A DNA stretch of 64,000 bases from a virus (IMGVR_UViG_3300032330_001692:1-64000), one strand, 5' to 3'. Shown: positions 3,030 to 62,890, counted from the first letter of the stretch. Notes: generated by a model not told the origin, from the sequence alone. Made by a program: numbers and translations.

Positions 3030-3421
3030 ATAGCCTTTGGAGTTAGATTGTTAGTAATAGCAGCAGGAACAGTATCTTTTGGATACTGATCTTTTATGAG
3101 TTTTATAGTAGTATAAAATTCATTGTCTTTTGGTAATTTGCCTGAATCCATTGCTTTCCAGATCAGCTCTAATTGGTCTAAAGCACTTGGATACAAGCTA
3201 CGACGTTTATCTGCATAAGAAAGGGGGCGAGGCCCTCGTTTAGGCCTGCCTCCTCGTACTACTTCTTTGGTTTTAGGGTCTACTGAATCATTATTAAGAT
3301 CTACTCGCCCTTCCAAGATATACTCTCCTGGAGCATTTACCTGCAACTCAAAATCTTCATCAGGTACTTGTCCGCTGCGAACAATTTCTCCCTGAGAATT
3401 ATAAATAATAAAATGTTTCAT
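3026..3421 (-). CDS. Tail fibre assembly/chaperone-like protein
   Basis: Directly follows the large fibre gene; RRSLYPS..DQL..IW motif. Confidence 0.55.
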   Translation of the reverse strand: MKHFIIYNSQGEIVRSGQVPDEDFELQVNAPGEYILEGRVDLNNDSVDPKTKEVVRGGRPKRGPRPLSYADKRRSLYPSALDQLELIWKAMDSGKLPKDNEFYTTIKLIKDQYPKDTVPAAITNNLTPKAI

Positions 3422-6400
3422 CTTTTTAATATTAAGACTGAAAGTCTTGCTGTTCCTTGAAAATATGACCTTTTTAGTTTAAAGGTATGAGTGCCTTGAG
3501 CAGGTGATAAAATAATAGCATTACATGGAGTACCATTATCTGTTAAACTCTCTAATAACGGACCTGTAACATATCCAGTTACACCACCACTGCTGTCTTT
3601 ACCAGTTCCTGAACTACTAGTAAATGCTACAGCAGTAGGCGGACCTAAATAATAATCTATTAGTATTGCAGAAGCACCTGCAGGTACTGTTACGGTTAAG
3701 GTAACTGTAGCTTTAGTTATTTGAGCAGCAGTATAAGCCTGTACTATAACTCCATCATATGCATCAGTAGCTTGGGAATAGCCAGTGGCTGCTGTACTTG
3801 CTGCCCCTCCCACAATTTGATCTGTGTTTACTATTGCGCTAGATAAAGTACCTGAAAAACTAGCTGAACCATTTTCAATTGAAAATCCTGGAGCGTAAAC
3901 GTTACCCTCACCAGTTATTTGAAAATACTTAGCATTAGTTCCATTTGCTGTGCCAAATAATAATCCACTAGCCCCTAAATAAAACCCGGTACCTCCTGCT
4001 GCAGGCCAAGCATACGAACTAGTATAACTACCGCCATATACTGCTCCGGTAAAGTTGCCTGATGCAGCAGATAATGAGCCAGAAAAAATAGCCTCACCAG
4101 CATTACTAATACTAACGGTGGCTTTGCCGTTTTTGGTTGCCACAATTCCTGTACTACCGATATAAAAACCATTTTTACCAGTTACAGAGTCTAAAGCAGG
4201 CGTTCCCACAGTTATAGCAGTTGGTGCTGTTAAAGTGATCGGCCCAACCATAGTATCGGCTGCAGATTTACTTAACTTTGAGTCGGCTGCTGTTTTGGCG
4301 GCTGCAGCCGCAGTTTGAGCATTAAATACTTCAGTTACTTCTTCAAAAGAAAAATCTTGAATTTCCCACCAACCTGGTGATCCTGAATAATTATCCAAAA
4401 ACTCAGGCTGTACAAAATTTACTCCAGTTTGCCAGTCCTCGCTACTCCAAGTATAAGAGTACTCCAACCATTTGTAACTGCCGCCAGCAGCTGCCTCATG
4501 CGTTGCACGACTGACTCCTGAAGGTTTGTACGGACTGCGTCCATTATTATCTGGTCCAGTAGTGCCAACTGCATCTTTAAATTGACGCAAACTGAAGTAT
4601 AGAAGACCTGTGGTACTAGCTGAAGGTCTAGCCCAAAATCTGGTACGGTAAACTTTACTTCGATCAATAGGTACATATATACTCATATTTGGATAACCAG
4701 CACCGCCACCATATAATTTTAGTATTTGTGAACCTACTTTGCCGTCTGTTACTGTGGTTAATACTTGCTCGTTTAAACTCCACTGAGAAAAAGGCAAAGC
4801 CAAGCTTTTTCCACTTGTGGCATTTAAGTCTCCGTTGTAGCCTATTCCACGTATGGTTACTTGACCACCACCAGCTCCTGCAAGCGAACCATCTGCGTTT
4901 ATTTTTATGCCGCCGATGTTGGTTAATGGGCCAAATTGAACATTGGTTAAAGAACTTCCAGTTTGATAAAAACTAGAGTCAAAGAAAAGGCTTGTGGTAA
5001 TGTTCGTGGTTACCGGAGTACCAATTACTGTGCCATTCTTCAAATACCGTACTGCAACTCCGTCATAAGTAACAGCTAAAATATCCCCTTCAACGTACGT
5101 TCCAATTTCTGCGTAATAAGTACCACTTCTATAGTCATATAATTTTCCTCGACCCTCAAGGTACAAAGCATAATCAATAGAAACCCAAGTGCGGTTTGTT
5201 TCAGGATCTGAATTTAAACCAAACATTATATCAGTCTTATTACTAGTGGCCTTAACAACGGCGTATGCACCTCCAACAAATGAATCTTTGCTGTATACAT
5301 CTGAATTCCAGTCATCAACCTCATTTGTTTTGGTTAAAGTTTTACCGTTTACAGTAACACCTCTACCTACAAAAGTAGTAGTACTTTGAGCATTGGCTGT
5401 ATATTGAGCTGCATCTGATAATACTTTAGCTGCTCCACTTATTACGTCTAATAATGCTTGTCTTGCAGTGTATACATTTTTAAAATTAGTTCTAAAGGTT
5501 TCACCTACAATGGTGGTATTTCCGTATAAATTATTCCAAGCTGAAGGGCTGTTAAGTGTTGCTAAATAATCGGTTAAATCACTGATAGTTTTATTGTAAG
5601 CGGTATTTTGAGCGATAACATTGTAGTTAGCTGCTTGAGCGTTAATTCCTGCTTTTTCCGCAATGATTACTTCGTAGTCTTGAATGATCTGAGGTTTTTC
5701 ATCTGGTGTTAACAGTGAGTCAGAACTAATATCTGCTATAGCTTGTACAGCTGTGGCTGCGGAAGCCTTAGCCGCATCAGCGTTACTTGTAGCTGTATTA
5801 GCAACAACAGCTGCAGCATCGGCTGCTGATTGCGCTGCTGAAATACTAGGCTCTAAGTTAATGTTCATGATGTCTTGAGGCGACGGCGTCCAAGAACTAG
5901 GCTGTGTGCCCAGCTCTACTTTTGGGCAACAAATATCAATAACAGAACCACTGGGCAAAGGTGTAGCGGAACCTTGCTGTACCACAGAAATGTATAGTTC
6001 TCCTTTAGAAGTATTGGCATTACTTAAAGGCACTCCACGAAAAACATATCTCTGCCAAGAACTTGTTAATGCAGGATTTTCTAATTCTGCACCATTGGTG
6101 AATCCCATGTTGCTGTAAAATCCATACATGCTCTTGCCCAGTGCACCAGCGCTGGCTTTAGCCCAAAAACTGATACAGTAAGTTTGAAGAGGTTCCCAAG
6201 ATTTAACAGAGTCTGCTATACCAGATACTACAGCAATACCAAGTGTAGTAGGTGTAGCCGCTCCTGCAATAATACGTACGTAATTTTGTCCAAACATTCC
6301 ACCTGATTGAACTGATGTAGTAGCAGCTATACTGGAATTGTTATATAAAAACCAGTTAGTAGGTAAAACATTATTGTGACGTAAAAAGCCGCTGTTGCCT

Positions 6401-49151: not shown

Positions 49152-50010
49152 ATGTCTGTGTGGCGTGTGGCTCCGGCCAAAGAACATCCTGAAGCTGTGC
49201 TGGTTTCTTGGCGAGTATTTGAACTTGAAAACGGTGATCGACACTTTTGTGGCCGCGAAACTCTATATCGCGAAGGCCGAGTCACCAGCCGTGTAGTAAG
49301 CTTTGATCCCAAATCTCGGCAGGGCATCACTCGTTCAAGCCGGTGCTATGAGCTGCAAGGCCCTCCAGGCCACAACGCAGATGCACTGTATGTGTGGGAC
49401 TACTGGTGCCGCGTAAACGGCATTACACAGTGCACAGACGTCACAGATCAGGTGTACGAAGAATTTACCCATTAAATTTTACACTTGCCGGCATGTTGCT
49501 TTTCAGTTATAATAATTCTTTGAAAATACAAACACACCATGAAATTTCGTGAAAAAACGGTTGAGATAGAAGCCATTGAATTTGTTTATACCGGAGGCGG
49601 ACTTCAAGCTTTGCGCGAATTTTGTGGTGATGCCCTGGGTTACGTAAACAAGGCCAGGCACATCAATGCCAAAGCAGAAGCTGAGATTAAAAATGTCTAC
49701 TCAGGCATAACATACGTTGCCGTAGAAGGTGACTGGATCGTCAAAAATGGCTCCGGTCATTTTCACAACTGTGATCCTCAAACATTTTGGAAAACCTATG
49801 AGCCAGTATGATCGTTTTGAGCATGAACAGCAACTCATGCGTTGTTGGCAAATCACTGATGACCTACAAGTGTTGGCAGAAGGTGTTCTAGAAGGCAGCA
49901 TGACCACTGATGATGTGGCAAATGTACTGCAGGGACTGCAACAGCTGTATGCACTAAAGTTTGACTCCCTGTGGAACAGCTTTGAAGCATCAATTCAAAT
50001 CCGCGACTGA
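49152..50010 (+). CDS. Three early hypothetical genes (49152-49475, 49539-49811, ~49798-50010)
   Basis: RBS-preceded ORFs; 49539 has GDWIVK..G.F..C....F.KTYE motif. Confidence 0.6.
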
Positions 50011-50074
50011 GTGTGATGGAAGCACGCTAGGCTCATAACCTAGAGGACCTGTTCGATTCAGGAGTTCGCAACCA
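50002..50074 (+). tRNA. tRNA-Met(CAT), initiator-like
   Basis: CT-CAT-AA loop, C1:A72 mismatch, CCA; irregular acceptor stem. Confidence 0.7.
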
Positions 50075-51883: not shown

Positions 51884-51982
51884 AGAGTTGCTAATGTTGG
51901 CCTTAGGGAGACCCTTATAAAGTCTTTAAGCCCTCACCAGATAAGTGAGTGTACGTGGGTTCGATTCCCACCTCTTCTACCA
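51881..51982 (+). tRNA. Atypical 102-nt tRNA, anticodon TAT (Ile-AUA?), very long variable arm
   Basis: GGAAGAG/CTCTTCT acceptor, GTGGGTTCGATTCCCAC T-arm, CT-TAT-AA loop, ~28-nt extra arm, CCA. Confidence 0.7.
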
Positions 51983-51990
51983 GATTTAAT

Positions 51991-52074
51991 GCGCGAGTGG
52001 TGTAATGGTAGCCACGCTGGTCTTAGAAGCCAGTGCCGTGAGGCGTGAGAGTTCGAGTCTCTCCTTGCGCACCA
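51991..52074 (+). tRNA. tRNA-Leu(TAG)
   Basis: Class II cloverleaf, CCA. Confidence 0.9.
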
Positions 52075-53513: not shown

Positions 53514-53628
53514 AATTTTTATCTTGAATTCTTCGCAAATTCCTGTATAATAATGTAATGGGTTGAGAGATCGATCCAGAGCTTCACTAGCGTAATTAGT
53601 GGTAATGACTGTGATACTTAATCAGTCA

Positions 53629-53792
53629 ATTAAGTTAAGCGTCTGCTGTAGCGAGGCGATCAGTTACTTCATACTATAGAGAAAGGTTAATCCTTGTGGT
53701 TAACCAAAGCGGTAAAATAATTCGGCGTGCCGCGATAGACAAAACCCGATAAAACCTGAGAACACACATTCTCAGCGGACGCTTAACTTAAT
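53629..53792 (+). ncRNA. Y RNA-like (Yrl) RNA upstream of Ro60
   Basis: 20-bp closing helix, CAGTTACTTC motif, internal hairpins. Confidence 0.65.
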
Positions 53793-53817: not shown

Positions 53818-55140
53818 ATGTCTAGCCTAAACAAGCGCGTGTATGCTCCTCAAGCCCGTGCTGTAAACCATGCTGGTACTGCTGTGCGCGCTATCACTCC
53901 AGAAAAGCAACTGGTGCGCATGACCCTAGCTAATATGCTTTGGGAAAACCAATTCTACGTCAACGGAGAAAAATCCGCTGACGTGATCGCCAAGTTGGTG
54001 CAACAGTGCGATGCCCAGTTTGTTTCAAACTTGGCCATCATGGCACGTACGCAATTCAAACTGCGTCACGTTCCACTACTGTTGACCCGAGAACTGGCAC
54101 GCACTGGCCGCCTTGCGGCACATGTGCTCAACGCTGTAATCCAGCGTCCGGACGAAATGTCCGAGTTCCTGTCAATCTACTGGCGGGACGGCAAGACCCC
54201 TATCGGCAATCAAGTCAAGCGGGGTCTTGCAACTGCTTTTGCAAAGTTTTCGGAATACGCACTTGCAAAGTGGGATAAGAACAGCAGCGCAGTCCGGATG
54301 CGTGATGTAATGTTCTTGGTGCATCCGAAGCCTGAGAGCCCTGCTCAGGCTGCACTGTTTAAGCGCGTTGCCGATAACGCGCTCAAAACCCCAGATACCT
54401 GGGAATCGGAACTCTCAGCTGGAGCCGATAAACGTGAAACGTTTACTCGACTGATGCAAGAGAAGAAGCTGGGAGCTTTGGCATTTTTGCGTAATCTGCG
54501 CAACATGACCCAAAGCGGCGTTCAGGACTCTCAGATTCGTGAGTACGCACAGACTCTAGATGTCACAAAGGTTCTGCCTTTCCGTTACATCGCAGCAGCC
54601 CGTATTGTTCCCGAATATGAGGATATGCTGGAACAGCTGATGTTTCGCAGCCTAGAGTCACACGAAAAGCTGCCTGGTGTAACCAAGTTGTATGTGGATG
54701 TATCAGGCTCCATGTTTGGTACTAAGATTTCTCAGAAGTCAGACTTGGAGCGTTTCGACGCTGCTGCTGCTTTAGCCGTGCTGTGCAGAGAAATCTGCGA
54801 AACGGTTGAAATCTACAGTTTCTCGGATCGTGCTGTGCGTGTACCACCTCGCCGTGGTTTTGCCCTAGTTGAAGCAATTCGCCAGTCACAAGCACACAAC
54901 GGTACCAACTTGGGGCGTTCGCTAAACTCCACTGGATCGCCTTGCGATCGAGTGATTGTGTTTACCGATGAACAGTCACACGACCGTCCGGGTAAGCCCG
55001 GGTTCGGTGCTAAGGGATACATTGTTAACGTAGCAGCCTATGAAAATGGTGTAAATCACGACCACTGGCTGACTATTTCAGGATTCTCTGAAGCCATCGT
55101 TGACTATATTCAAGCCGTTGAAAAGGACGTAAGTCCTTAA
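53818..55140 (+). CDS. rsr: Ro60/TROVE domain RNA-binding protein with vWA domain
   Basis: LRHVP, F.KFSEY.LAKW, LRNLRN, LPFRY, MIDAS DVSGSM, VFTDEQ, I.GFSE. Confidence 0.92.
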   Translation: MSSLNKRVYAPQARAVNHAGTAVRAITPEKQLVRMTLANMLWENQFYVNGEKSADVIAKLVQQCDAQFVSNLAIMARTQFKLRHVPLLLTRELARTGRLAAHVLNAVIQRPDEMSEFLSIYWRDGKTPIGNQVKRGLATAFAKFSEYALAKWDKNSSAVRMRDVMFLVHPKPESPAQAALFKRVADNALKTPDTWESELSAGADKRETFTRLMQEKKLGALAFLRNLRNMTQSGVQDSQIREYAQTLDVTKVLPFRYIAAARIVPEYEDMLEQLMFRSLESHEKLPGVTKLYVDVSGSMFGTKISQKSDLERFDAAAALAVLCREICETVEIYSFSDRAVRVPPRRGFALVEAIRQSQAHNGTNLGRSLNSTGSPCDRVIVFTDEQSHDRPGKPGFGAKGYIVNVAAYENGVNHDHWLTISGFSEAIVDYIQAVEKDVSP

Positions 55141-55221
55141 CTGGAGCAAGGCGATAAGCAAGAGCTCGTACTAATATTTAGCGGTATACCTTATCATTAC
55201 TAACGCTAAATTACCTTAGTA

Positions 55222-55425
55222 CTGCCGCGGTGGCAGTGTCCATCCACCAAGTAGTGCGAAAACTACTAAAAAATCCACGCTAGGAACCGCAAGCAGCCGG
55301 TCAGAGCAAGAGAGTGGTCAGGACGAATATGTACAAGAGTAGCATGTAGAGTTGCGTACACAACTCGAGGGCTTGAATTCTCTTGCCGGCGACACCGGCT
55401 ATGTCCTCTAAACTGCAAGGTTTAG
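55222..55425 (+). ncRNA. Unidentified multi-helix RNA downstream of Ro60
   Basis: Nested AGCCGGT/ACCGGCT, GCAAGAGA/TCTCTTGC and GAGTTG/CAACTC helices plus flanking hairpins; no ORF. Confidence 0.45.
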
Positions 55426-55499
55426 AAAAGTGTATGTTGTCGGATGCGGTTACTTCTTTAGGCGAAAAAACACCGCATCAATTTGTTACTACACTTTTC
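55425..55499 (+). ncRNA. Minimal Yrl-like RNA
   Basis: GAAAAGTGTA/TACACTTTTC, internal loop, GATGCGGT/ACCGCATC, loop starting TACTTC. Confidence 0.7.
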
Positions 55500-55500
55500 C

Positions 55501-55608
55501 AAGCCTTGACGCTGTTATTGGTTACTTCATAGGTTCGATTCCTATATGCGGTTACATACTGCGTATAGCTGCAATGGCGCAGCACACCAATACAAATTTT
55601 TCAGGCTT
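55501..55608 (+). ncRNA. yrlA: YrlA-like RNA with circularly permuted tRNA-like domain
   Basis: Stem, GGTTACTTC, T-arm ATAGGTTCGATTCCTAT, closed acceptor-like hairpin, D-arm TAGCTGCAATGGCGCAGC. Confidence 0.8.
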
Positions 55609-55616
55609 CCATTTAC

Positions 55617-55718
55617 GTCTTAGTGTTTTACACAGTTACTTCTCTTACCATAAAATTCTGGCCTTACAGCTTGAATCAAGAAATGCCGCATAGGCGCTCT
55701 GTGTTTTTTGTTCTAGAC
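55617..55718 (+). ncRNA. Yrl-like RNA
   Basis: GTCT(T)AG/CTAGAC and ACACAG/CTGTGT stems, CAGTTACTTC motif. Confidence 0.6.
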
Positions 55719-55740
55719 TCCTTTAACTACCACCATTACC

Positions 55741-56089
55741 ATGACCATACGAGTAATCAAAGCAGCAGTTCGTGAAGTAGCCTGCCAACATTGTGGCTCT
55801 CTGTTAGAGTACAGTCCCAGTGACGTGCAAGAAGCTTGGCATGAAGACTACTTAAACGACGGTACCTGGGTACCGTATATTGAGTGCCCTGAATGTGAAA
55901 AACATGTCCGACTCACACACTGACCTAGTTTATCGACTGCAAACTCGTGCAGAAATTCGCCGGCAGATTCCAACCAGAAAGTCTGTTCAGGAAAACAAAC
56001 CTGACCGTATAGCAGACTTACTGGAAGAAGCTGCTCAGCGCATTCAACAACTGGAAGCTGCGTTGCAAGGTGCAACAAGGGCTTGCTAA
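55741..56089 (+). CDS. Zinc-ribbon protein (55741-55923) and small helical protein (55904-56089)
   Basis: CQHC...CPEC; RAEIRRQI..RKSV...DRIADLLEEAA. Confidence 0.6.
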
Positions 56090-57113: not shown

Positions 57114-57189
57114 GCGTGTGTAGCTCAATTGGTAGAGCAGCTCGTTGCCAACGAGCAGGTTGCAGGTTCGAGACCTGTCGCCCGCACCA
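57114..57189 (+). tRNA. tRNA-Gly(GCC)
   Basis: TT-GCC-AA loop, CCA. Confidence 0.88.
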
Positions 57190-57192
57190 TCT

Positions 57193-57269
57193 GCGTGGTT
57201 AGTGTTCAACGGCTAGCATCTTTGGTTTCCACCCAAAAGGAAAGGGTTCGAATCCCTTACCCCGCACCA
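57193..57269 (+). tRNA. tRNA-Gly(TCC)
   Basis: TT-TCC-AC loop, CCA. Confidence 0.85.
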
Positions 57270-57277
57270 CTTACGAG

Positions 57278-57352
57278 AGTTCCTTAGCTCAGAGGCAGAG
57301 CAACGCTTTTACACGGCGAAGGTCGGGATCTCGGAATTCCCAGGAACTACCA
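57278..57352 (+). tRNA. tRNA-Val(TAC)
   Basis: TT-TAC-AC loop, atypical T-loop, CCA. Confidence 0.82.
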
Positions 57353-58639: not shown

Positions 58640-58715
58640 CCAACTTTAGCTGATGTGGTCATAGCGCTGGTTTGAAGCTCCAGTGAACTTGGTTCGATTC
58701 CAAGAGGTTGGGCCA
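58640..58715 (+). tRNA. tRNA-Phe(GAA)
   Basis: TT-GAA-GC loop, GGTTCGATTCC, CCA. Confidence 0.8.
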
Positions 58716-58821
58716 TAAGTTTAGTATACGGTATAGCTCAGTTGAATAGAGCGAGTGATAAAATACTAGTTAGCACGTAGCGCGTCGGGTAAGAGCCGAC
58801 TACCGTTTACTAAACTTATGG
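58713..58821 (+). ncRNA. tRNA-like RNA with extended closed acceptor helix, no CCA
   Basis: 14-bp outer helix plus ACGGTA/TACCGT, D-arm TAGCTCAGTTGAATAGAGC, T-like arm GTCGG/CCGAC. Confidence 0.6.
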
Positions 58822-62396: not shown

Positions 62397-62466
62397 AAAA
62401 CTAGGGTCAGCACGGTGGGACGTGCAGGTAGACAATACTGCATACAAGGTTCGAATCCAAACTCTA

Positions 62467-62770
62467 GGCACGATGGTTGTAATTCCCCTGAAACGAATGT
62501 GAGCAAGACGCGGGTTCGACTCCCGCCAGGTCCACCAGAAGTACTTTTGTCCATGGAGTTGGGAACGGATAGATAAACCGTGAAAGTATTTCTGATGGGC
62601 CTGCCCAGGTTTCGATTGCGCAAGCTAGTGGATGGAGCAACTCGGTAGGCGATGACCGTAAATCAAGCAAAACACAATAAATGCAAACGATAGCATTTTT
62701 GCTGTAGCGGCCTAAAAAACTTGCACAGCTGAGGTTTTGGCCGGTTCCTTATCAAAGAATACCGGCCCTT
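62467..62770 (+). ncRNA. ssrA: Circularly permuted (two-piece) tmRNA
   Basis: 3' piece ...GACGCGGGTTCGACTCCCGCCAGGTCCACCA (ends 62537) precedes an intervening hairpin and the 5' piece GGGCCTG (62597). Tag ANDSIFAVAA* at 62683-62715. Outer ends approximate. Confidence 0.9.
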
Positions 62771-62890
62771 TAGAATAACGCTAATGTGAAGGGACTCCGT
62801 GCACGGTGAGCCTGGATCTGAGTCAGCGAGTTGATAGTTGGAGTGGACTGACCCACAAAGAGTAACTATCGAATTGGCGTTATTCTAAAG
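62768..62890 (+). ncRNA. Unidentified helix-closed RNA between tmRNA and tRNA-Thr
   Basis: 18-bp CTTTAGAATAACGCTAAT/ATTGGCGTTATTCTAAAG. Confidence 0.55.

What the first reader, a model, noticed from the sequence alone, without database searches (positions are those of the whole stretch)
55501..55608. Circularly permuted tRNA mimic lacking both anticodon and CCA
Seen: after GTTACTTC the order is T-arm (ATAGG-TTCGATT-CCTAT), a hairpin in place of the acceptor stem (ATGCGG-TTACATA-CTGCGT), then TA plus D-arm (GCTGC-AATGGC-GCAGC), all closed by TATTGGT/ACCAATA. This matches YrlA topology. It presents a tRNA elbow while the putative Ro-binding stem replaces the anticodon arm. Inference: an uncharged elbow decoy with no anticodon to cleave.
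Basis: partly seen in the sequence, partly recalled or inferred. Interest (0 to 1): 0.75.

Follow-up and report, generated by a model that had tools for sequence, protein, structure and literature searches.

The report
Phage Y RNA that mimics tRNA
This 108-base stretch is a small non-coding RNA gene shaped like a tRNA written in rotated order, lying just after a phage gene for a Ro60-type ring protein; it is a divergent example of the known "YrlA" class of Y RNAs, not a new kind of element.

Summary
At 55516-55592 (+) a 7-bp helix encloses, in order, a UACUUC loop, a canonical T arm, a closed 7-bp acceptor-like hairpin, A-UA, and a D arm with GG. All 24 pairs are standard. My descriptor of this fold hit 7 times in about 0.33 Mb of rsr loci and once in 4.25 Mb of unrelated viral DNA.

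The ORF 360 nt upstream (53818-55140, same strand) is an Rsr/Ro60 orthologue: TROVE plus Ro60 vWA, and E 1.4e-21 to Thermus phage phiLo Ro60.

Covariance models built without the window score the element at 26 and 34 bits (E about 1e-6 to 1e-8). They also find 23 similar modules beside rsr in diverse phages (92.8% of cells paired; 20 of 22 pairs with double changes). Rfam YrlA hits several of those below its threshold, but not the window element.

The element is therefore a divergent YrlA-type Y RNA. It is the only tRNA-like unit among four UUACUUC-bearing units flanking rsr, and it is missing from the closest relative (85% Rsr identity).

Likely role: an Rsr partner RNA acting as tether or gate. 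The "decoy" reading is untested. The scan has reported this kind of locus before on other genomes. I class it as a new member of a known kind, of modest interest.

The parts
55501..55608 (+). Whole Y2 unit: outer pairing, internal loop, inner helix and tRNA-like domain
   Evidence: About 55497-55612 has no counterpart in the closest relative L259, where Y1 and Y3 are adjacent.
55501..55509 (+). 5' strand of the outer pairing (AAGCCUUGA), partner 55601-55608. 55501-55508 also belongs to the 3' strand of the Y1 stem.
   Evidence: Same position as the outer stem GAGCCG/CGGCUC of module L127:6073-6175.
55508..55514 (+). GACGCUG in the 5' internal loop: degenerate counterpart of the Rsr-site motif GNCGAAN0-1G
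   Evidence: Read. Layout compared with the Rfam YrlA consensus and with PMC4201824.
55516..55522 (+). Inner helix, 5' strand (UAUUGGU), equivalent to the anticodon stem; pairs with 55586-55592
   Evidence: pair probabilities 0.5-1.0.
55522..55528 (+). UUACUUC: YUAY-type motif (UUAC) opening the variable loop, which ends in a pyrimidine
   Evidence: NUACUUC is about 7-fold enriched on the rsr strand beside rsr in 24 loci.
55529..55545 (+). T arm: 5-bp stem AUAGG/CCUAU and loop UUCGAUU
   Evidence: The GG/CC pairs and the T loop are invariant in the family alignment.
55546..55564 (+). Closed acceptor-like hairpin: 7 bp AUGCGGU/ACUGCGU, loop UACAU
   Evidence: pair probabilities 0.97-1.0.
55565..55567 (+). 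Linker A-UA (UA equivalent to U8-A9, plus one extra A)
   Evidence: Alignment to model R1.
55568..55583 (+). D arm: GCUGC/GCAGC with loop AAUGGC. G18-G19 are kept; positions 14 and 21 are C and G instead of A and A.
55586..55592 (+). Inner helix, 3' strand (ACCAAUA)
55593..55608 (+). 3' internal loop CAAAUUUUU and outer 3' strand UCAGGCUU. Resembles the 3' 'UUGUUCUC' stretch of sister modules.
   Evidence: By eye against L127, L040, L026 and L259.
53818..55140 (+). rsr: Ro60 orthologue, 440 aa (TROVE plus Ro60 vWA)
   Evidence: Pfam TROVE E 9.6e-13. PDB 9KOP/9L5Y, phiLo Ro60, E 1.4e-21 over residues 27-435. 98 phage records carry homologues.
53630..53791 (+). Y0: Y-RNA-like unit upstream of rsr (14-bp terminal stem, GUUACUUC at 53663); not tRNA-like
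   Evidence: z = -4.7. Homologue in L259.
55416..55508 (+). Y1: long-hairpin Y-RNA-like unit (19-bp stem, GUCGGAUG at 55439-46, GUUACUUC at 55449)
   Evidence: z = -4.7. Conserved, with compensatory changes, in L002, L003 and L259.
55617..55718 (+). Y3: third downstream unit (GUUACUUC at 55635; inner pairing 55630-35 / 55699-704)
   Evidence: About 88% identical to L259. The fold alone is not significant (z = 0.2).
53524..53551 (+). Sigma-70-like promoter TTGAAT-16-TATAAT ahead of Y0 and rsr
   Evidence: 10 of 12 matches. A consensus match only.

Best explanation
The element is the gene for a YrlA-type Y RNA, the non-coding RNA partner of the phage's own Ro60 orthologue (Rsr), which is encoded just upstream.

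Shown: the RNA can fold so that its two ends pair (inner helix 55516-22/55586-92, possibly extended by 55501-09/55601-08). Between them sits a circularly permuted tRNA core: variable loop, T arm, loop-closed 7-bp acceptor-like stem, U8-A9-like linker, and D arm. It keeps the T-loop UUCGA and the D-loop GG that form the tRNA elbow. It has no anticodon loop and no 3' CCA.

Inferred: the end-paired stem with its internal loop (GACGCUG ... UUAC) docks on the outer face of the Rsr ring. The tRNA-like domain is the effector module. It stabilises the RNA and presents a tRNA elbow to a tRNA-binding host factor. It thereby tethers or gates Rsr, as in the Rsr-Y RNA-PNPase particles of Deinococcus and Salmonella and of Thermus phage phiLo.

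It is one of four modular Y-like units around rsr (Y0 upstream; Y1, Y2, Y3 downstream) that share a UUACUUC-containing handle but carry different inserts. It is probably transcribed with rsr from the promoter-like site at 53524-51 and then processed.
For: (1) Adjacency. A TROVE plus Ro60-vWA ORF ends 360 nt upstream on the same strand, and it matches the solved phiLo Ro60 at E 1.4e-21.

(2) Fold. There are four helices with 24 standard pairs and no mismatch. The tRNA-like fold is within 1 kcal/mol of the minimum free energy.

(3) Specificity. Descriptor hits are concentrated in rsr loci: 7 in about 0.33 Mb against 1 in 4.25 Mb.

(4) Independent models.
- R1, built from two other phages only, gives 26 bits, full length, E 2e-8 to 2e-6.
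- R2, built from 23 modules without the window, gives 34.2 bits, E 2.5e-8, the best hit in the window.

(5) The family is real. 92.8% of cells are paired, against 61% when shuffled and 34-47% when slid, and 20 of 22 pairs show double changes.

(6) Bridge to the known family. Rfam YrlA (RF02553) matches the same modules in Xanthomonas phage Tenjo, CcrColossus, Rhizobium, Streptomyces and Brevundimonas phages and in one uncultured IMG/VR viral contig, at 27-56 bits, E down to 6e-10.

(7) Layout. GACGCUGU, then a helix strand, UUAC, V loop and T arm. This parallels the Rfam consensus of GGCGAAUGCUU, helix strand, CUAC, V loop and T arm.

(8) Literature.
- YrlA RNAs lie within 4 kb of rsr on the same strand in 254 bacteria and 22 phages (PMC4201824).
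- They form a tRNA-like L shape with a closed acceptor stem (10.1101/312249).
- Phage Ro60 binds phage Y-like RNAs and host PNPase (PMC12135203).
Against: - Rfam YrlA does not match the element, even at E up to 10 in a 501-nt search.
- The published Rsr-site motif GNCGAAN0-1G is degenerate (GACGCUG).
- A14 and A21, conserved in all but one of the 23 other family members and part of the U8-A14-A21 triple in the YrlA crystal structure, are C and G here.
- No close homologue of this particular unit was found. The 11 closest rsr loci lack it at this position, so there is no covariation for this exact sequence.
- The covariance models also score tRNA-tRNA junctions up to 32.5 bits, so the score alone is not decisive.
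- The outer stem competes with the Y1 stem for 55501-08.
- There are no expression, binding or modification data.
Confidence: 0.8

Rival explanations
1. It is a tRNA-like processing or punctuation signal. The module is recognised by RNase P (and 3' processing enzymes) to cut the rsr-Y RNA-tRNA polycistron, or it is itself cleaved in the acceptor loop into a two-piece, CCA-tailed tRNA-like RNA. Under this reading Rsr binding is secondary or absent.
For: - The acceptor-like stem is exactly 7 bp, with U at the -1 position of the loop.
- A 7-bp stem is the feature that makes M. smegmatis YrlA an RNase P substrate that then receives CCA (PMC4201824).
- The element sits in a tRNA array that is probably transcribed as polycistrons.
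- In D. radiodurans, Yrn2 is co-transcribed with a tRNA and Yrn1 (PMC4201824).
Against: - This is not exclusive of the Y-RNA reading, because in M. smegmatis both halves remain Rsr-bound.
- The other three units next to rsr have the same handle without any tRNA-like part, so the common denominator is the handle and rsr, not tRNA processing.
- No CCA-adding enzyme is encoded in the record.
Confidence: 0.1
2. It is a decoy for tRNA-targeting host defences or other elbow-binding proteins. The RNA would soak up anticodon nucleases or tRNA-binding factors because it shows an elbow but has nothing to cleave.
For: - The elbow-forming nucleotides are kept (T-loop UUCGA, D-loop GG).
- The phage invests heavily in translation RNAs: ARAGORN tRNAs and a permuted tmRNA. 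This fits with pressure from tRNA-directed defences.
- The ligand of the YrlA tRNA-like domain is unknown (10.1101/312249).
Against: - No evidence here or in the papers read supports it.
- Most anticodon nucleases recognise the anticodon loop, which is absent.
- The strict linkage to rsr across phages and bacteria points to a function through Rsr (PMC4201824).
- Close relatives do without this unit at this site.
Confidence: 0.06
3. It is a non-functional remnant: a decaying duplicate of a YrlA module, or leftovers of two neighbouring tRNA genes, kept only by chance.
For: - It is unique to this phage among the close relatives sampled.
- It deviates at A14/A21 and in the Rsr-site motif.
- It shares a 10-nt direct repeat, ATGCGGTTAC, with Y1 (55444 and 55546), which suggests local recombination.
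- TTCCA is present at both edges of the indel (55497-501 and 55607-11).
Against: - All four helices are perfectly paired (24 of 24), including the two (acceptor-like and closing) that would be non-complementary in a junction of two different tRNAs.
- It is not a copy of any tRNA in the window.
- It is the only tRNA-like module near rsr in this phage, in line with the pattern of one tRNA-like Y RNA in each characterised species (PMC4201824).
Confidence: 0.04

Closest known systems
[quoted passage not shown] 2014 (PMC4201824); crystal structure 6CU1, Wang et al. 2018 (10.1101/312249)
   Same: - Encoded beside rsr on the same strand.
- The 5' and 3' ends pair.
- Between the ends lies a circularly permuted tRNA core in the same order: V loop opened by YUAY, T arm with UUCGA, loop-closed acceptor-like stem, UA, D arm with GG.
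- No anticodon loop and no CCA.
- Accompanied by at least one non-tRNA-like long-hairpin Y RNA (here Y1, comparable to YrlB).
   Different: - Not matched by RF02553.
- The GNCGAAN0-1G motif is degenerate.
- A14/A21 are replaced by a C-G pair, and 13:22 is G:C.
- There is one extra A before U8.
- UUACUUC directly forms the V loop.
- It lies downstream of rsr, in a four-unit array inside a phage tRNA cluster.
- Its outer stem shares a strand with the neighbouring unit.
M. smegmatis YrlA (RNase P-cleaved, CCA-tailed form; PMC4201824)
   Same: The acceptor-like stem is 7 bp, the determinant the authors give for RNase P cleavage.
   Different: Cleavage and CCA addition are untested here. The loop is only 5 nt, and the phage record encodes no CCA-adding enzyme.
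Thermus phage phiLo Ro60 with Yrl1/Yrl2 (PMC12135203; PDB 9KOP, 9L5Y)
   Same: A phage-encoded Ro60 (nearest solved structure to the window's Rsr, E 1.4e-21) with several Y-like RNAs encoded next to it. It was shown to bind them and host PNPase.
   Different: In the passages I read, Yrl1 and Yrl2 are described as stem-bulge-stem RNAs with a CGAA motif, and the terms 'tRNA-like' and 'YrlA' do not occur in the paper. They lie upstream of the gene.
Permuted tRNA genes and two-piece (permuted) tmRNA
   Same: The order of tRNA parts in the gene is rotated. The same window holds a permuted tmRNA (62418-62778).
   Different: Those are processed into aminoacylatable molecules with a free CCA end. Here the acceptor end is closed by a loop and there is no anticodon or tag-coding part.

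Membership tests
YrlA-type Y RNA (Chen et al. 2014) | Encoded within about 4 kb of an rsr/Ro60 (TROVE) gene, on the same strand | tested here: met
   rsr lies at 53818-55140 (+) and the unit starts at 55501 (+).
YrlA-type Y RNA (Chen et al. 2014) | tRNA-like T stem-loop (5-bp stem, 7-nt loop with U54 U55 C56 R57 A58) | tested here: met
   AUAGG-UUCGAUU-CCUAU at 55529-45.
YrlA-type Y RNA (Chen et al. 2014) | tRNA-like D stem-loop with the two guanines that contact the T loop, and conserved A14/A21 | tested here: inconclusive
   GG is present, the arm has the same length as the consensus, and U8-A9 is present. Positions 14 and 21 are C and G, unlike nearly every other member of the alignment.
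YrlA-type Y RNA (Chen et al. 2014) | Loop-closed acceptor-like stem between the T and D arms; no CCA, no anticodon loop | tested here: met
   A 7-bp hairpin at 55546-64. The 5' and 3' flanks pair in place of an anticodon arm.
YrlA-type Y RNA (Chen et al. 2014) | YUAY at the start of the variable loop, and a pyrimidine at its last position | tested here: met
   UUAC at 55522-25; C at 55528.
YrlA-type Y RNA (Chen et al. 2014) | GNCGAAN0-1G motif near the 5' end (presumed Rsr contact) | tested here: not met
   The best candidate, GACGCUG (55508-14), has CU where AA is expected. The neighbouring unit Y1 has GUCGGAUG, one mismatch (layout).
YrlA-type Y RNA (Chen et al. 2014) | Bound and stabilised by Rsr; Psi55 and dihydrouridine made by TruB and DusA | not testable with these tools
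   Needs immunoprecipitation and modification mapping.
Rfam RF02553 (YrlA) as curated | Score at or above the gathering threshold of 69 bits | tested here: not met
   No match at E up to 10. Related phage modules reach only 27-56 bits, so the model is too narrow for phage members.
   R1: 26 bits, E 2e-8 to 2e-6. R2: 34.2 bits, E 2.5e-8. Caveat: tRNA-tRNA junctions also score.
Canonical tRNA | Cloverleaf with anticodon arm and open acceptor end | tested here: not met
   ARAGORN gives no call. Rfam tRNA gives only 17.2 bits (gathering 29), using ACCGCAU of unit Y1 as the acceptor strand and lacking D and anticodon arms.

The most novel reading that the evidence does not exclude
The phage Rsr may use a set of exchangeable RNA cassettes. 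All four units carry the same handle (helix, UUACUUC, ..., UUGUUCU-like return strand), which would be the true Rsr docking site in phages in place of the published GNCGAA motif. Inserts are gained, lost and moved between closely related phages. The tRNA-like cassette would aim the Rsr ring at a tRNA-elbow-binding host factor (RNase P, a modification enzyme or a tRNA-directed defence nuclease) to protect or police the phage's own tRNA pool. The strand shared between Y1 and Y2 (55501-08) would act as a switch between two alternative RNPs.
Probability: 0.12. Interest if true: 0.6.

Novelty: new member of a known kind. Interest (0 to 1): 0.3.

Why it matters
The element adds a divergent, unannotated member to the YrlA class. 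It also shows that the curated Rfam model misses phage members altogether. In the loci examined here, rsr is typically flanked by 3-7 handle-sharing Y-like units, often inside tRNA arrays. The tRNA-like unit can change position or be absent between phages with 85% identical Rsr.

This makes such phages convenient natural material for two open questions:
- What is the ligand of the YrlA tRNA-like domain?
- Which part of bacterial-type Y RNAs does Rsr actually read?

For this window taken alone, the result is an annotation, not a discovery.

Tried and rejected
- **Rfam scans.** The scan at gathering thresholds and at E up to 10 gave no YrlA hit on the element.
- **blastn.** A search of 55300-55800 against 50,697 phage records gave no match.
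- **Pattern GTCGAAAGGCTTTG in IMG/VR.** 117 stretches matched. tblastn found an rsr relative in only one of them, L169, which is the contig of L002 again.
- **Pattern TAGCTGCAATGGCGCAGC (the D arm) in IMG/VR.** 52 stretches matched. About 50 lie in one conserved coding region of unrelated phages, and none is a Y2-like unit.
- **Re-permuting the element.** I rearranged it into normal tRNA order and ran ARAGORN. It called a tRNA, but in a wrong register that used the D-arm strand as acceptor, so the test is uninformative.
- **Canonical tRNA with acceptor ACCGCAU (55472-78) / AUGCGGU (55546-52).** Rejected. It scores 17 bits and has no D or anticodon arm. ACCGCAU belongs to the inner helix of Y1, which is conserved with compensatory changes in L259.
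- **Artefact of two adjacent tRNA genes.** Rejected, because no tRNA lies on either side. Such junctions do fool the covariance models elsewhere, for example L250 5739-5817 and window 57152-57216.
- **A single Y RNA of about 250 nt closed by 55368-76 / 55600-08.** Not favoured by folding.
- **RtcB and CCA-adding enzyme.** Neither was found in the 93.8-kb record.
- **MAFFT alignments.** A multiple alignment of seven modules misaligned the variable acceptor-like region, and a pairwise alignment with L259 placed L259's Y1 against the window's Y2. Both were replaced by model-based and affine-gap alignments.

Full report
**What is there.**
The window comes from a 93.8-kb uncultured virus record (IMG/VR). 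Between 47 and 63 kb, ARAGORN tRNA genes and a permuted tmRNA.

An inner 7-bp helix, UAUUGGU/ACCAAUA (55516-22 / 55586-92), encloses these parts in order:
- UACUUC;
- a T arm, AUAGG-UUCGAUU-CCUAU;
- a hairpin, best read as 7 bp AUGCGGU/ACUGCGU with loop UACAU;
- a D arm, GCUGC-AAUGGC-GCAGC;
- AC.

An outer pairing, AAGCCUUGA/UCAGGCUU (55501-09 / 55601-08), can extend the structure across an internal loop.

All 24 pairs of the four inner helices are standard. The unit folds at -32 kcal/mol, z = -3.2. The tRNA-like four-way fold is within 0.4-0.9 kcal/mol of the minimum-free-energy structure, which instead lengthens the hairpin to 10 bp at the expense of the T stem.

**More than chance.**
I wrote a strict descriptor of the permuted fold: closing helix, V loop, 5-bp T stem with a T[TG]C[AG]A loop, adjoining hairpin, 2-3-nt linker, D arm with GG, and return strand. 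It hit once in the window (this element) and six more times in other loci that carry an rsr gene. No tRNA gene lies between 53201 and 56097, so the T arm and D arm do not belong to two neighbouring tRNAs.

**The neighbour decides the identity.**
The 440-aa ORF at 53818-55140, same strand and ending 360 nt before the unit, has a TROVE domain (E 9.6e-13) and weaker Ro60-vWA and VWA_2 matches. It aligns over residues 27-435 with the solved Ro60 of Thermus phage phiLo (PDB 9KOP/9L5Y, E 1.4e-21). It is therefore an Rsr (Ro sixty-related) protein.

Homologues occur in 98 deposited phage genomes. These include Ralstonia RsoM2USA (53% identity), Xanthomonas, Microcystis, Brevundimonas, Caulobacter CcrColossus, crAss001, Rhizobium, Streptomyces and Gordonia phages, usually next to tRNA genes.

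**Link to the known RNA class.**
Chen et al. 2014 (PMC4201824) defined YrlA RNAs. They are encoded within 4 kb of rsr on the same strand in 254 bacteria and 22 phages. They have a GNCGAAN0-1G motif near the 5' end, YUAY opening a variable loop, near-invariant T and D stem-loops, and a closed acceptor-like stem between them. Wang et al. 2018 (10.1101/312249) solved the domain: an L-shaped tRNA mimic, 'circularly permuted', without CCA or anticodon loop.

The Rfam model RF02553 does not match the window element, even at E up to 10. It is a narrow model and reached its 69-bit threshold in none of the phage loci either.

I therefore built a covariance model (R1) from only two modules found beside rsr in other phages: Streptomyces phage Kela and an IMG/VR contig.
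- R1 finds the window element full-length at 26 bits, E 2e-8 to 2e-6.
- It also finds 23 modules beside rsr in the Rhizobium, Brevundimonas, CcrColossus, Xanthomonas Tenjo and Gordonia Neville loci, and in IMG/VR and metagenome loci.

On the 24-sequence alignment, 92.8% of cells are paired, against 61% after shuffling and 34-47% after sliding the partners. 20 of 22 pairs show changes on both sides. The alignment is fitted to the model, so these figures lean towards the structure.

RF02553 does give significant sub-threshold matches (27-56 bits, E down to 6e-10) on exactly these modules. This ties the R1 family to YrlA.

A second model (R2), built from the 23 modules without the window, scores the element at 34.2 bits (E 2.5e-8), the best hit in the window.

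A caveat applies. Both models also score junctions of adjacent tRNA genes (up to 32.5 bits in the window), because T and D arms dominate the score. What separates the element from such junctions is the perfect complementarity of its acceptor-like and closing helices and the absence of flanking tRNAs.

**How it deviates.**
Aligned to the family, the D arm has the consensus length. However, it carries C and G where A14 and A21 stand in all but one of the other members, and G:C at 13:22. This creates a fifth base pair and would remove the U8-A14-A21 triple seen in the crystal structure.

There is one extra A before the UA linker.

UUACUUC directly forms the variable loop. The same is true in one relative, L127:6087-6160, whereas in the canonical members UUACUUC lies further 5'.

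The layout GACGCUGU, UAUUGG, UUAC, UUC, T arm parallels the Rfam consensus GGCGAAUGCUU, helix strand, CUAC, V loop, T arm. The GNCGAA motif itself is degenerate here.

**Context: a four-unit array.**
GTTACTTC occurs five times in the window. Four of these lie within 2 kb around rsr on its strand.
- **Y0** (53630-53791, upstream) has a 14-bp terminal stem (z = -4.7) and follows a TTGAAT-16-TATAAT site.
- **Y1** (55416-55508) is a long hairpin with a 19-bp stem (z = -4.7). It carries GUCGGAUG, one mismatch from the published motif. Its stem is conserved with compensatory changes in L002, L003 and L259.
- **Y2** is the finding.
- **Y3** (55617-55718) is about 88% identical to its L259 counterpart.

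Across 24 rsr loci, NUACUUC occurs 98 times in 42.4 kb of flanks on the rsr strand (2.3 per kb) against 0.31 per kb in background loci. This agrees with the published picture of several Y RNAs per species, one of them tRNA-like and one a long hairpin (PMC4201824).

**The unit is an indel.**
The closest relative is metagenome contig L259, with 85% identical Rsr. It has Y1 and Y3 directly adjacent. About 55497-55612 of the window has no counterpart there, and TTCCA is present at both edges. L259 instead carries two tRNA-like modules upstream of rsr (2215-2283 and 2359-2432). L002 and L004 also carry one upstream. L003, L261 and L262 show none within the DNA fetched.

I found no close homologue of this cassette, so its own helices have no covariation support.

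**An unresolved point.**
Bases 55501-08 serve both as the 3' strand of the conserved Y1 stem and as the 5' strand of the Y2 outer pairing. When Y1 is present, folding favours the Y1 stem and leaves Y2 closed by its inner helix only. By eye, a similar competing pairing exists downstream of Y1 in L002 and L003. I cannot tell whether this reflects alternative folds, processing, or coincidence.

**Mechanism.**
Shown: the fold potential, the linkage to rsr, and membership of an rsr-linked, covarying RNA family matched by Rfam YrlA.

Inferred from the literature: the end-paired stem binds the outer face of the Rsr ring. The tRNA-like domain stabilises the RNA and presents a tRNA elbow to a still unknown factor. 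The RNP gates or tethers Rsr, for example to host PNPase, as shown for phiLo Ro60 with its own Y-like RNAs (PMC12135203).

The 7-bp acceptor-like stem predicts possible RNase P cleavage, as in M. smegmatis (PMC4201824).

The record encodes no RtcB and no CCA-adding enzyme.

**Verdict.**
The YrlA-type reading is supported, and the decoy inference is untested. The element is a divergent new member of a known class. Earlier notes of this scan describe the same kind of locus (a phage Ro60-like gene with a row of handle-sharing RNAs, one a permuted tRNA) on many other genomes, and the four-unit array on this genome.

Noticed in passing
window 53630-53791, 55416-55508, 55617-55718: Three further Y-RNA-like units (Y0, Y1, Y3) share the GUUACUUC handle with the finding but have no tRNA-like insert. 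Y1 is a 19-bp-stem hairpin carrying GUCGGAUG, one mismatch from the published Rsr-site motif.
   Followed up: partly
24 rsr loci (window, L002-L004, L026, L040, L101, L127, L248-L261, L263, L265): NUACUUC is about 7-fold enriched on the rsr strand within 1 kb upstream and 0.8 kb downstream of rsr. This holds in phages as different as crAss001, Gordonia Neville, Microcystis Mvi-JY20 and CcrColossus, typically with 3-7 copies per locus.
   Followed up: partly
window 55141-55415: This stretch of about 275 nt between rsr and Y1 is non-coding. Part of it (roughly 55280-55345) is clearly conserved in L259 (about 3985-4050) and contains GUGGUCAGGACGAAU. It may be another structured RNA.
   Followed up: no
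window 55444-55453 and 55546-55555; 55472-55553: A 10-nt direct repeat, ATGCGGTTAC, links the inner helix of Y1 and the acceptor-like stem of Y2. ACCGCAU (55472-78) could therefore pair with either copy, which gives a weak Rfam tRNA hit (17 bits) that looks like an acceptor-T minihelix.
   Followed up: partly
window 62418-62778: A phage-encoded permuted (two-piece) tmRNA, about 131 bits to both the tmRNA_permuted and beta_tmRNA models, with tag ANDSIFAVAA. A similar one is present in relative L260 (4967-5337) and in Brevundimonas phage Kabachok (L251 7791-8046).
   Followed up: no
window 57278-57349 and 50003-50070: Two Rfam tRNA matches (43.6 and 37.9 bits) that ARAGORN did not call. ARAGORN's gene strings for most tRNAs in the array end in CCA.
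   Followed up: no
window 51945-52021 and 58679-58758: Model R2 scores 32.5 and 25.8 bits here, next to or overlapping tRNA genes. These are probably tRNA-junction artefacts. The best, insignificant RF02553 match in the genome also falls at 58668-58779.
   Followed up: no
L253 (crAss001) 5557-5760: Downstream of the crAss001 rsr gene there is a 144-nt Rfam tRNA match (46.6 bits) and four UUACUUC motifs in an unannotated gap. This is a likely Y-RNA array in a cultured crAss-like phage.
   Followed up: no
L252 (CcrColossus) 3128-3195: The annotated tRNA-Gln overlaps an R1/RF02553 YrlA-like match (3161-3259) in a row of three such modules upstream of the TROVE gene. The annotation may be a misread Y RNA.
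   Followed up: no
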